Origin: Folioceros fuciformis
Lineage: Eukaryota
Reading direction: 5' to 3'
DNA: 64,000 bases
Assembly: GCA_049999805.1 (NCBI GenBank)
Contig: JBNGIO010006248.1
Coordinates: forward strand, 45,900 to 109,899
Shown here piece after piece: positions 8,888-17,861 of the stretch. Below the pieces are notes generated by a model. The model saw only the letters and a program-made list of their open reading frames with translations. It was not told the DNA's origin and did no database searches. Within the stretch, counting starts at the first letter, position 1. Each line of letters starts with the position of its first letter. The position numbers and the translations under genes were made by a program.

Positions 8888-10930
8888 TCAAACTGCTGCC
8901 CGGATGGAGTCAGTGAAGGATCCGATAGCAGCGAGTCCCTCCTCTGGGCTTGAAGCATCTCCAAGCAATTTCACCACTCTGCTGCCTACAATGACACCGT
9001 CCGCCCCCCATTCCACCATCTGCGATGCAATGCAGGGGGGGGGGGGGATATTACTATACTCATCCAGAGATCATGTCATGGAAGGAAGGAACTCTCTCCA
9101 GTACAAGTATGGGCATACCTGGATTGCATGTTCTGGTTTAGAGATTCCGAAGCCAACAGCAACCGGGATTGTGGGGGCCTCCTGCGGGGGTTCCAAATTT
9201 GATTACGAGACTGAAAAAGATACTCTGCATTTGCATTTCCAGCCTTGTTCGAAGCACTAAAGACGAAGTCGTGTTCGAAGCACCAAAGGCAGAGAACAGC
9301 ACACACCTCCTTGATGTCTTTCAGGAGATCTCGAACCTTGGACGATACAGATGCGCGAGCTCCTGTCACACCTGTCAGACTAACCTGCACGAATGCAGGA
9401 GAGATAGGGAGTCACCTACCGAGGTTCATGTATAAGGAAGTCTCGGTACTATTGCTCCGGGGAAAAAAGCACCAAACTTACTAAGTAAAGAAAGCCCTGT
9501 GTTGCGTGGGCTATGGCTCCCATCCGTGCCTTAGAAGTGGTTGGCGTGGTCATGAGCACCTACCAAACGAGAGATGGTTAGTGGGGAGTACCAGCTCAGG
9601 GACAAGACCCCACAAACCTGCGATCGTACCAGCTCCAGCCCATGCTTCAATGTGAGGACCCGCAGTTCGTCTGTATCCTCTAGCGTCAGGTCAGGTACAA
9701 GCAGACCTGCAGGGTGACACAAGTTTTGACCCCAGTGCTTCAGCAAAGTTGCCCACATTTGGCTGCCAGCCTAAGAATTGAAGCGTTGAAAATCACAATG
9801 AGTCGTCGAAAGCCCCACAAAACAACCAAGCACCTGAAGCACCGGAATCCTTGATACTTTTCAAGAAATTCTCTACCCCACGCTTCAATATGGGATTGTA
9901 ATACGTGAACAGCACAACAGGAGCACGCAACTGTGGTGAAACCTGCACAATCAAGCCAAGGCAAACTGTCGAGAACAACCGAGCCACCTGCTACCTATCT
10001 CTGAAACATCCTGCAAACGTCATGGAGCTAGGCTGTACAGGAACAGAGCATCTGGAAGCATTTAGGGTTTAGATCACAGACATCTTGCAGACACGTTCTA
10101 ACAAAACAAATCCTCGGACTGAAGCAGGAAAGACCTTTTTCAACATCACCAGGACTCCCTCCAGGGTGATGCCTTTCTCCAACGCACGTCTGTAGGCCTC
10201 CTGCATCGCGGACCAGGGGGAACTGTCAGAACGCGAAGGCCACCAACATTTCACGACAACAGTCAAGTCGGAACCTTCCAGCCAACAGCTAGCCTTCCAG
10301 CTCCTACACCTTGAAGAGCAGCAGAACCACTACCAAAGCTAACCTGAATGACCGGCCCATCAGCCAAGGGGTCGGCATACGGCACTCCCAGCTCCAGAAT
10401 ATCCGCTCCCCTTTCGTCTAACAGCAACAAGGCCTTGGCAGTGGTGTCCAAATCCGGGTCCCCGGCAACAAGGTAGGGGATGAAGGCAACCTGCACAGAA
10501 AACCACAGAATCCCCGTACGTCCACCAGACCAGAACAGCACCGGCAATTGATTCACCCCCATTCCCACCTCTTCCCCACCTTCGCACAACATCAGTCTCA
10601 ACGTTCCATCACTCCATCTCAAAGACACAACCCAACCCAATCCAATCCAACCCGCACCTTTCCTGCCTTCTTCGCCTCGGCAAACGTGGACGCTAGGCTC
10701 AGCGTGTCGGAGGCCACGGCACAGCACGTGCACAGCCCGCCCCCGCCTCCCACCTTCCCTGCAGGGCCCAAGCTCCAATGCAATGGCCTGGCGGCTGCCC
10801 CAATCGCAGCACCATTCCTGGACTCCAAGCGTAGCACCGACGGGACGCGGGCACGACAACAAGCCCCGGCCGTCTCCAAAACCGCCACAGGATTCTTCGC
10901 CCGCAGCAAGCGGTCACAGGCCAACGCCAT
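8888..10930 (-). CDS. TSA1: Tryptophan synthase alpha chain, plastid-targeted, 9 exons
   Basis: Transit peptide from ATG 10930, then [73 protein letters not shown] and [10 protein letters not shown]; stop at 8888-8890. Confidence 0.95.
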
Positions 10931-11613
10931 GCTCTCCAGTTCAACAAGCACAACACTGTCTGCCTCCCACCTGATGCCCCCCGTTTTGAACTTACTTATA
11001 CCTCGAACAAACAGCCTCCGCCACCGATGGAAAAAACCGAGCAACTCTGACCGAAGTACGTGACCTGACGCACGTACAAATATATACACCCACCACTACA
11101 CTTCTCCGCACGCGCCAGGAGAGCTTGCGGGAACCGAGACTCATGGTTCCAACAGAGGTCACACAAAAAACCGATCCTGGACCAGACGTGCGGCACCCAT
11201 GAGGCAAGCACGCTACATATCCCAACCTCAGATGGATTACTGGCCTCCTTCACATCCTGTGCCTCCTTCACATCCTGTGCCGGTGGGTGCTCAAGTTCCA
11301 GCTTCGGGTGTGGGCTGGATAAAACAGCACAGTGTTCCGCAGGGGCTATGGCAATGTAGGCCTGCACAAACCCATGCCCAAGGTGTGGACAACTGGTGCA
11401 CCACGTCTGTAGGCATAGTGTCGCTTTCATTTCGTATCTTTTACCACAATAAAGGCTCCAGTTACACTCTACTTCAAAGTCTTGAACTCCAGGCCCTTCC
11501 GAGTTCAAACTCCCGGTGCAGGATCTGTAAGTAATTCACGTATGTCTAGGAAGTCCAGGAAGTCTCTAACTCCGAAACAAGGGAGGACAAAGAAAAAACT
11601 TTTTAGCACCGAG

Positions 11614-12570
11614 TCAAACATTGTCTCCTGGAGAAGACCGAGCAGGAGGAAATAAGTGCCAACTCGTCGAGTTGAAGGCTGAAGAATCTGGGAACCTTAT
11701 GTCGTCGATGGGATACTCTATTACCTTGTTACACAGCCGTCTCATATCTTCCCAAGGGGAGTTGGCTTCAACTGAAATGGACGGCGCACGCAGATTTGCT
11801 ATGTAAGAGTTGAAGCTGTTTCCCAGGACGGCTACTTGACTAGTGGTCACCAGGTGCATGTTCGATGCCACCACATTGACGTACAGCTGGAGTGAACAAT
11901 GCGGCATGTAGAACAGGGTGGGCTTTGAGAAAGGCAATTTACCGTCGCAGTTGTCTGTCATCGAACCGCACCCGAGCTCCTCCAGAACTCTGCATTCCAG
12001 CCGCGTAAGGATAGGATCGTGAACCAATACTTGGACGACGTATGGAAGAGACTCTTTACACAACAGTGCAAGGGATAACTGGCACCGTGATCGTTCCGTT
12101 TTGTCTATACTGCCTAATCCATAGACAACCAGCTGAATTTGCCGACCCTTCTCCGGAACTTGGGAATCAAGACCACAACTCTGTCCAAGAGCGTCGTCCG
12201 TAGATGAAGTGACGGGAAACCAGCTCCGGCATTCCGCAAGTTCCAAATTCCTCAGCTGCTCCAAGAATCTCCTGAAAAACTCCGAGGTCTTTACTCTCTC
12301 CTTCGACTTCTTGTACTTCGCCAGTAACTCCTGCTTTTCATGACCAAAATCTTCACCACGGGCGTTGTCTGTGTTCGTTCCTCCCGCCACACTCATCACT
12401 ACCTGTATTTCCTGATCGCACCCTAGGGCTGTTGGACCTTCACCAGCTCCGACCACCTGCAAGATGGTCCTGCTATTGCTTTCGCTCCCTGCAATGCATG
12501 GCGACGGCCGCACTGAAACTCGCAGCCTGTTCTTGCGATACTTCACTACGTGCCACTCCCCGTCTGCCAT
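11614..12570 (-). CDS. SRR1: SENSITIVITY TO RED LIGHT REDUCED 1 (SRR1-domain protein), intronless CDS
   Basis: MADGEWHVV start; SRR1 motifs VVYGLGS, SRCQLSLALL, HDPILT..E, KPTLFYMPHC and VLGNSF. Confidence 0.9.
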   Translation of the reverse strand: MADGEWHVVKYRKNRLRVSVRPSPCIAGSESNSRTILQVVGAGEGPTALGCDQEIQVVMSVAGGTNTDNARGEDFGHEKQELLAKYKKSKERVKTSEFFRRFLEQLRNLELAECRSWFPVTSSTDDALGQSCGLDSQVPEKGRQIQLVVYGLGSIDKTERSRCQLSLALLCKESLPYVVQVLVHDPILTRLECRVLEELGCGSMTDNCDGKLPFSKPTLFYMPHCSLQLYVNVVASNMHLVTTSQVAVLGNSFNSYIANLRAPSISVEANSPWEDMRRLCNKVIEYPIDDIRFPDSSAFNSTSWHLFPPARSSPGDNV

Positions 12571-13029
12571 GCTTTTGTGAGCACCCAAATCTGAGCTGAA
12601 AGACTTACAGCTACCTTTTCCCACTGTTCCAACCGGTGCCAACTACAAGGACCTTACCGGCGTCCCAAAAAACGAAACAATCCAATATAATCTGTTTCCC
12701 CGATGTTCACCCCATTCAACTCCTGCACCAAACCGGTTCTCAGAGACCAGGGACTCCAGCCTATGAAAACCACAAAACCACCCCGCCTAGGTCAACGTAC
12801 CATTCCAAGATTTCCATCCACACTCGCCCGACATCCCCAACCTTCCACCTCAACTTCACCTTCGGGCAAGTCGACGGAACCTGCTACATATCACCTGCTG
12901 ATAGCATGCACGATAGGGCATAGACGTGAACTCTACTATACATCACATCGCTTCACTCACCTAAAACAAGCGACAACCACAAACACCAAGAGAAAATCGC
13001 AAAGCACGGCAAATCACTCACTCACTCAC

Positions 13030-13410
13030 TCAATCGTCCGACAAGCTTGCAAGAATCATTCTGGCCTCGAACAGAATTTCACCAGCTTTCTCCAGCCAGA
13101 ACCTCCCCTGCGCGTCGGAAAACACAAGCCACTATCAAACGCCCTCCGGCAGCTTCAGATCCGCATCAAACGCGATGCAGAAATGGAGAAACGCCGGTGC
13201 TGCTAGCGAAAAATCCCCAACCTCGACCACGTTACGGGGCACGCCGTAGCCGTGACAATACATCTCTCCCACAAGCATCTGCATGGAAGAGTCACCTCCT
13301 TCTGCAGCCTTCAGCGTGGATTCGAAGAAGCGTCTGACGCAATCTGCCACCACAAGCCGCAGCGGCACGCGCTGCCCTGCCTCTTCTGCTTCTTTGCCCG
13401 TTGCAGCCAT
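13030..13410 (-). CDS. Small Sel1-like-repeat protein (plant conserved uncharacterised family), 2 exons
   Basis: VPLRLVVADCVRRFFESTLKAAEGGDSSMQMLVGEMYCHGYGVPRNVVE | GRFWLEKAGEILFEARMILASLSDD* follows the Sel1 pattern A..GD..Q..LG.MY..G.GV......WL.KA. Exon 2 is 13107-13030. Confidence 0.8.
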
Positions 13411-13610
13411 GGCCTTTGATGCTCATAAATCTAGCGATCGGCGAGGCGAAGGAGGCAATTGGTTTATATTCGTCTCCTGCTATCTATTCCGGCGCGCATA
13501 GCATACGTTAGGCTCTTTCCTGTTTCGTAAACATGTAGGCGATGACATACATACGTTATCGGAAACCATTCCTGTTTCGGGGATGTTCGTCGGATGTCTT
13601 TCTGATAAAC
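13411..13610. promoter_or_regulatory. Putative compact bidirectional promoter between the Sel1-like gene (-) and PCCA (+)
   Basis: Two start codons are head-to-head with only 200 bp between them. Inferred from geometry alone. Confidence 0.5.

Positions 13611-17861
<4,251 letters not shown>

What the first reader, a model, noticed from the sequence alone, without database searches (positions are those of the whole stretch)
11614..13410. Sel1-like ORF and SRR1 appear to share one spliced transcript (dicistronic mRNA or in-frame fusion)
Seen: the Sel1-like stop (13030) lies 460 bp upstream of the SRR1 ATG (12570) on the same strand. The spacer holds three normal-sized GT-AG intron candidates: 12960-12881 (GTGAGT..GCAG), 12800-12723 (GTACGT..TGCAG) and 12657-12596 (GTAAGG..TTCAG). 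That leaves almost no room for a separate terminator and promoter. If an alternative donor at 13082 (G|GTGAAA) is spliced to 12880, the exons read without a stop and in frame into the SRR1 ATG. Established: nuclear polycistronic mRNAs are rare in land plants, and SRR1 acts in phytochrome/clock signalling in Arabidopsis. Inference: a dicistronic or uORF-like unit, possibly with a splice switch to a fusion protein.
Basis: partly seen in the sequence, partly recalled or inferred. Interest (0 to 1): 0.72.

Follow-up and report, generated by a model that had tools for sequence, protein, structure and literature searches.

The report
Spliced RNA linking two hornwort genes
In a hornwort-like plant, RNA assemblies join a small Sel1-like gene to the neighbouring SRR1 gene through two introns, most likely as read-through between tightly packed genes rather than as a fusion protein or a true two-protein message.

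Summary
Both ORFs are real and 459 bp apart. In one spliced-RNA run (contigs only), a single 1,478-nt contig runs from ORF1 exon 2 and its stop through the whole SRR1 CDS. Open fusion paths arise in 15 of 164 splice combinations, so one is unremarkable. Contigs cannot prove one molecule: another contig merges ORF1 with its divergent neighbour. Intron 13025-12898 looks like the family's own intron 2, now 4 nt behind an early stop. ORF1 lacks a C-terminal motif kept in 117 of 119 relatives. Signs of a translated bicistron are missing: ORF1 has a consensus start, ten AUGs precede SRR1, and none of 49 related loci has SRR1 nearby. Best reading (0.45): spliced read-through of the kind known in Arabidopsis, with SRR1 protein made from shorter RNAs. 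Rivals: overlapping separate mRNAs (0.28), obligate dicistron (0.17), fusion (0.04). Long reads and TSS mapping decide.

The parts
13222..13410 (-). ORF1 exon 1 coding part (63 codons) of a small Sel1-like protein of the At2g38450 family; start context gccATGG
   Evidence: 54% identical to Amborella P0181; Pfam Sel1 only weak, E 0.013, below cut-off; only family member found in the assembly
13108..13221 (-). ORF1 intron 1 (114 nt, phase 0), at the same codon as in relatives; both spliced and retained forms assembled
   Evidence: joint contig depth 9.5, retained contig 11.3
13026..13107 (-). ORF1 exon 2 (82 nt) with the stop codon at 13032-13030 and 4 nt behind it; relatives have a 70-nt exon without stop
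   Evidence: 70 nt in 28 of 28 parsed loci, of 46 tried
12898..13025 (-). Intron A as spliced in RNA (128 nt, T-rich, phase 1 in ORF1's frame); probably the family's intron 2.
   Evidence: joint 12897-13026; contig length 1478 equals the sum of the modelled exons; homology inferred
12801..12897 (-). Spacer exon 3 (97 nt), non-coding for either main ORF; holds AUGs 12889, 12834, 12817, 12803; in relatives the exon at this place codes the conserved C-terminus
12723..12800 (-). Intron B (78 nt), spliced; junction 101 nt behind ORF1's stop on the joined RNA
12596..12657 (-).
12571..12712 (-). AUG-free 142 nt directly before the SRR1 start, with an AT-rich word at 12691-12683 and a T run at 12672; room for a separate SRR1 start site or an ORF1 poly(A) site (lead only)
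11614..12570 (-). SRR1-domain CDS, one exon, 318 aa
   Evidence: PF07985 E 8.6e-33; three further copies elsewhere in the genome, none with an ORF1-family hit in the 3.1-3.5 kb loci fetched
11426..11613 (-). 3' region covered by the joined contig (188 nt); contig ends at 11426

Best explanation
Partial read-through with splicing across the spacer in a very compact genome. Shown: minus-strand RNA that contains ORF1 exon 2 and its stop is spliced at 13025-12898; RNA is spliced at 12800-12723 into the SRR1 exon; the contig path is unbranched. Inferred: RNA polymerase II starting above 13410 splices ORF1's inherited intron 2 and intron B, which removes the T-rich stretch behind the stop, and runs on to the end of SRR1. 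This gives an RNA of about 1.7 kb with two ORFs 253 nt apart. Ribosomes start at ORF1's consensus AUG and seldom reach SRR1 past nine further AUGs. The junction 101 nt behind the stop and the 1.4-kb tail should make that RNA a substrate for nonsense-mediated decay. SRR1 protein then comes mainly from shorter RNAs that start below ORF1's AUG (exon 2/3 or the AUG-free 142 nt). No fusion protein is made.
For: One 1,478-nt contig covers 13109-13026, 12897-12801 and 12722-11426; there is no cover in 12898-13025 and no alternative joint. Intron A has the phase of family intron 2 (28 of 28 parsed loci have a 70-nt exon 2, ours 82 nt; end-anchored likeness P 0.024, post hoc), so ORF1 transcripts are expected to use it. 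ORF1 start is gccATGG; ORF1 has 4 internal AUGs and the spacer 5, against 5.1 expected from 2000 shuffles. In Arabidopsis, second ORFs of 7 of 8 tested read-through RNAs were rarely translated, and 202 of 271 second genes have their own start site (PMC9768141). An intron 99 nt behind a stop triggered decay and one at 28 nt did not (PMC1693880). Neighbouring transcripts abut or overlap on both sides.
Against: Only one run, as contigs, which the tool says cannot show a single transcript, a start or an end. The two junctions need not be on one molecule. Another contig merges ORF1 exon 1 with the divergent carboxylase gene, so merges do happen here. In Arabidopsis read-through RNAs are a small minority (0.06% of wild-type long reads), whereas here the joined path is the only one assembled; this fits an obligate unit or overlapping mRNAs as well. 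No separate SRR1 start site was shown.
Confidence: 0.45

Rival explanations
1. Two separate mRNAs that overlap. ORF1 mRNA splices its own intron 2 and is polyadenylated in intron B or in 12722-12571. SRR1 mRNA starts in exon 2/3, with intron B as its 5' UTR intron. The assembler merges them over the shared exon.
For: The same run merges ORF1 exon 1 with the divergent gene, and the SRR1 and TrpA contigs overlap by 16 nt. Intron A is explained by ORF1's own gene structure. A 3' UTR as long as SRR1's (188 nt) would end inside the shared region. Contigs drop short tips and rare forms (tool note). A T run at 12672 follows an AT-rich word at 12691.
Against: No branch, loose end or unspliced form in the spacer. 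Exon 3 is 41% G and has no AATAAA/AATGAA-like word. The SRR1-TrpA tandem junction does break in the contigs while this one does not (n = 1).
Confidence: 0.28
2. Obligate, functional dicistronic mRNA like CDC26-TTM3: one start site above 13410 and one poly(A) site near 11426. ORF1 acts as a large uORF, and SRR1 is made by reinitiation, shunting or internal entry, which also shields the RNA from decay.
For: The joined path is the only one assembled. Small ORF first, and a spliced inter-ORF of 253 nt, close to algal medians of 260 and 212 nt (PMC7896298). Both ORFs are open. A second small-ORF-first pair 96 nt apart exists in this genome.
Against: ORF1 start matches the consensus and AUGs are not depleted, the opposite of algal bicistrons (PMC11892635). 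No SRR1 hit near 0 of 49 related loci. No Sel1/SRR1 term in the supplements of the two algal papers (weak, tables may hold gene ids only).
Confidence: 0.17
3. Splice switch to an ORF1-SRR1 fusion protein (446 aa) through donor 13082 and introns B and C.
For: The path is open and uses GT-AG ends.
Against: Only 1 of its 3 spacer joints is seen; the donor used keeps the stop; stop read-through meets a second stop 5 codons on. 15 of 164 combinations give such fusions. A search of proteins of 112-2000 aa found no fused form, but it also missed the known plant relatives, so it is weak.
Confidence: 0.04

Closest known systems
Arabidopsis read-through transcripts with intergenic splicing (Kurihara et al. 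2022, PMC9768141)
   Same: Tandem genes, splicing between the 3' region of gene 1 and the 5' region of gene 2, T-rich stretch behind the first stop removed, architecture that predicts nonsense-mediated decay.
   Different: There they are minor forms beside monocistronic mRNAs and shown by long reads.
CDC26-TTM3 bicistron of plants and algae (seen only through PMC9768141 and PMC11892635)
   Same: Small conserved protein first, unrelated enzyme-sized ORF second.
   Different: That pair is deeply conserved and both ORFs are shown translated. This pair is not adjacent in 49 related loci and has two spacer introns and five spacer AUGs.
Exclusively bicistronic loci of green algae (PMC7896298, PMC11892635)
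   Same: Short ORF1, inter-ORF near 250 nt.
   Different: They have weak ORF1 start contexts and few AUGs before ORF2; both features fail here.
At2g38450-type small Sel1-like proteins of plants
   Same: N-terminal helix and Sel1 repeat, intron 1 position, phase of intron 2.
   Different: ORF1 stops in exon 2 and lacks the W..V.DK.PGYNASDS end found in 117 of 119 flowering-plant relatives; no GT-AG splice variant restores it.

Membership tests
Read-through transcript with intergenic splicing (Kurihara 2022) | One RNA molecule overlaps two protein-coding genes | tested here: inconclusive
   One contig spans ORF1 exon 2 to the SRR1 end, but contigs do not show molecules
Read-through transcript with intergenic splicing (Kurihara 2022) | Splicing between the first stop and the second start | tested here: met
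   Joints 13025-12898 and 12800-12723
Read-through transcript with intergenic splicing (Kurihara 2022) | Poly(A) site of gene 1 inside the spliced intron; own start site of gene 2; accumulation when decay is blocked | not testable with these tools
   Needs 3'-end, CAGE and decay-inhibition data
Leaky-scanning bicistron (green algae type) | Short inter-ORF (medians 212-260 nt) | tested here: met
   253 nt spliced, 459 nt genomic
Leaky-scanning bicistron (green algae type) | Weak ORF1 start context | tested here: not met
   gccATGG matches the general consensus quoted; no hornwort-specific matrix was available
Leaky-scanning bicistron (green algae type) | AUG depletion before ORF2 | tested here: not met
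   5 spacer AUGs against 5.1 in 2000 shuffles, plus 4 inside ORF1
Leaky-scanning bicistron (green algae type) | No monocistronic forms; both ORFs translated | not testable with these tools
   Needs long reads and ribosome profiling
Conserved bicistron or conserved-peptide uORF | Same pair adjacent across lineages | tested here: inconclusive
   0 of 49 related loci (15 clusters, apparently flowering plants) have SRR1; 25 of 28 parsed have 1.5 kb or more behind the stop. No other hornwort or bryophyte locus was obtained.
At2g38450-type Sel1-like protein | N-terminal helix plus Sel1 repeat and shared intron 1 | tested here: met
   54% identity over exon 1, same junction; family profile score 94.6 bits
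At2g38450-type Sel1-like protein | C-terminal PGYNxSDS motif | tested here: not met
   117 of 119 relatives have it; absent in 7136 distinct splice variants scored. Whether other hornworts have it was not testable.
SRR1 family (PF07985) | SRR1 domain above the Pfam cut-off | tested here: met
   114 bits against cut-off 24; orthology to At5g59560 among the four copies was not tested

The most novel reading that the evidence does not exclude
SRR1 has taken over the promoter and last exon of an unrelated Sel1-like gene, which lost its conserved tail and became an 88-codon uORF. The result would be an obligate hornwort dicistron whose second ORF is translated past ten AUGs and an exon junction that should trigger decay, so by a route other than leaky scanning. 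It would be a young bicistron caught in the making, and tight small-ORF-first pairs (also CDC26 before a carboxylase) might be common in hornworts.
Probability: 0.15. Interest if true: 0.7.

Novelty: new member of a known kind. Interest (0 to 1): 0.38.

Why it matters
If it is read-through or overlap, it is one more case of a described phenomenon and a warning for annotating compact hornwort genomes, where transcripts abut and merge. If it is an obligate dicistron, it would be a land-plant case that lacks the leaky-scanning signature and shows how a bicistron can arise by exon capture. It would also suggest a long-read survey of hornworts; no paper on nuclear bicistrons in hornworts came up in the listings.

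Tried and rejected
No RNA holder was on record as such; X1 was judged RNA from six GT-AG joints. X2 and X3 laid nothing at 82%: no evidence either way. Contig depths (31.8 for the joined contig; 9.5 and 11.3 at intron 1) were not used to rank parts, as the tool forbids that reading. Homologue searches with exon 1 found only generic Sel1 proteins or nothing; the representative search was crowded by long Sel1-repeat proteins and gave one family member. A 'WKVGD' word in exon 3 looked like a relic of the family tail, but reaching it needs unobserved joints or micro-exons, and the best of 7136 variants gains under 10 bits: rejected as unproven. CDC26-TTM3 was sought as an in-genome positive control but failed: CDC26 sits before a carboxylase and the TTM3-like hit is cut by a contig end. 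Atlas searches gave only unnamed plant and algal clusters. The SRR1 protein is not in the exact-match collection. Earlier-findings look-ups were empty. A GC donor noted for a TrpA intron was my slicing error. PMC10952607 and PMC6704554 passages held nothing of use. No structure or complex prediction was run, since binding is not claimed.

Full report
Setting. The window lies in an 87-Mb assembly of 7240 contigs. It encodes both an LCIB-family and a DELLA-family match above cut-off. LCIB is reported in hornworts and algae but no other land plants, and DELLA in hornworts (PMC8075897, passages), so the organism is most likely a hornwort (inference). That paper also notes high gene density. The locus holds four genes in 4 kb: a biotin carboxylase gene on + (PF00289; likely ATG 13611), then on - the small ORF1, SRR1 and tryptophan synthase alpha (PF00290; ATG 10930).

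Observation in the DNA. ORF1 (ATG 13410, intron 13221-13108, stop ending 13030) gives 88 aa. SRR1 (12570-11614) gives 318 aa with PF07985 at E 8.6e-33. The gap is 459 nt. The three intron candidates have the stated ends and the fusion path is open. That is not remarkable: 15 of 164 enumerated combinations of exon-2 donors, YAG acceptors and introns B and C give an in-frame fusion.

Observation in RNA. The run search listed three runs, none on record as RNA. Laid on 10200-14400, X1 gave 5 contigs, all at least 99% alike, with six GT-AG joints; X2 and X3 gave none. Record 2 (1,478 nt) covers 13109-13026, 12897-12801 and 12722-11426, and these lengths sum to exactly 1,478. So the spliced path from ORF1 exon 2, with its stop, into the whole SRR1 CDS exists. 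The first intron is 13025-12898, not 12960-12881. No joint uses donor 13082. Reading through ORF1's stop meets another stop five codons later. Intron 1 is seen both spliced and retained. Limits: one run; contigs drop rare forms and cannot show starts, ends or single molecules. Record 4 merges ORF1 exon 1 with the divergent carboxylase gene, which shows that overlapping transcripts are merged here. The TrpA contig begins at 11441, 16 nt inside the end of record 2.

What ORF1 is. It belongs to the At2g38450-type family of small Sel1-like plant proteins: 54% identical to the Amborella member over exon 1, found through P0139 (560 hits, best 120 listed; the named ones are flowering plants or uninformative). 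It is the only member found in this assembly. Related genomic loci have intron 1 at the same codon, a 70-nt exon 2 and a phase-1 intron of 81-130 nt before the exon for the C-terminal motif (28 of 46 loci parsed, 28 of 28 with 70 nt). Here exon 2 is 82 nt and the intron is also phase 1. Its last six codons resemble the family's (P 0.024 by shuffling, chosen after seeing the data). I infer that intron A is the gene's own intron 2, now 4 nt behind an early stop. The motif present in 117 of 119 relatives is absent, and none of 7136 distinct splice variants restores it. Whether this loss is shared by other hornworts could not be tested. The family has no functional study in the 3 listed papers that name At2g38450 (listing only).

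Is it a translated bicistron? The spliced inter-ORF is 253 nt, near the algal medians of 260 and 212 nt (PMC7896298, passages). But algal bicistrons have weak ORF1 start contexts and few AUGs before ORF2, and one added AUG more than halved ORF2 output (PMC11892635, passages). Here ORF1 starts in gccATGG, has 4 internal AUGs, and the spacer has 5 against 5.1 expected. Junction B lies 101 nt behind the stop and 1,398 nt follow the stop. In plants an intron 99 nt behind a stop triggered decay while one at 28 nt did not, though one cited case at 80 nt did not either (PMC1693880, passages). The last 142 nt before SRR1's ATG are AUG-free. The pair is not adjacent in 0 of 49 related loci from metagenomes (15 clusters at 90% identity; taxon not given by the tool, flowering plants by likeness); 25 of the 28 parsed have at least 1.5 kb behind the stop. 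The same SRR1 query found paralogues at 31-36% identity with E below 1e-23. No bryophyte relative was obtained, so conservation within hornworts is open.

Comparison with what is known. Kurihara et al. (PMC9768141, parts 1-3 of 6 of the text read: abstract, results, discussion) report 271 Arabidopsis read-through loci, 158 with intergenic splicing. Such splicing removes poly(A) signals, second ORFs are rarely translated (7 of 8 tested), 202 second genes have their own start site, and the RNAs rise in decay mutants. This locus works most like those. It differs in that the joined path is the only one assembled and in the apparent inheritance of intron A. A search of that paper's supplements for the Arabidopsis gene ids found nothing, but only 35,000 characters were held and one file was unreadable, so the locus table may not have been seen. 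CDC26-TTM3 was seen only through citing papers. SRR1's role in the clock and flowering is from abstract starts and a reference title; nothing here shows that role in hornworts. The listings (top 3-30 rows each) showed no report of this pair.

Verdict. I put spliced read-through with SRR1 made from shorter RNAs at 0.45, overlapping separate mRNAs at 0.28, an obligate translated dicistron at 0.17 and a fusion at 0.04. The first two are ordinary; the third would be of real interest. Long reads, start-site mapping and ribosome profiling separate them.

Noticed in passing
L062 (G000:C6320), reverse strand 1501-1683 and 1780 onward: A 60-aa CDC26-like ORF (PF10471) is followed 96 nt behind its stop by the ATG of a biotin carboxylase (MCCA-like) gene on the same strand, not by TTM3. 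A TTM3-like C-terminus lies at the end of another contig (L061), so a second CDC26 there cannot be excluded. Possible second small-ORF-first unit.
   Followed up: partly
window 10931-11441 (-): The TrpA contig begins 511 nt above the TrpA ATG and holds 8 AUGs and a 144-aa ORF (11430-10996) without Pfam hit; it may be an SRR1 3' extension merged with the TrpA leader.
   Followed up: partly
window 13411-13610: Divergent ATGs of ORF1 and the carboxylase gene are 200 nt apart and the stretch is covered by one contig: overlapping 5' leaders from a bidirectional promoter are likely.
   Followed up: no
window 13108-13221 (-): ORF1 intron 1 is the only one of six introns in the laid stretch with an assembled retained form; retention gives a 91-aa variant.
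   Followed up: partly
window 12803 and 12596-12657 (-): Splicing of the unused canonical intron would turn a 23-codon uORF with a good start context into a 31-aa N-terminal extension of SRR1 (349 aa); not seen in RNA.
   Followed up: partly
L003, L004, L005: Three further SRR1-domain copies in the genome; two are open, one has stops within the match; they lack the window copy's N-terminus.
   Followed up: partly
window 13426-13292 (-): An out-of-frame AUG in weak context 16 nt above ORF1's start opens a 44-codon ORF overlapping ORF1.
   Followed up: no
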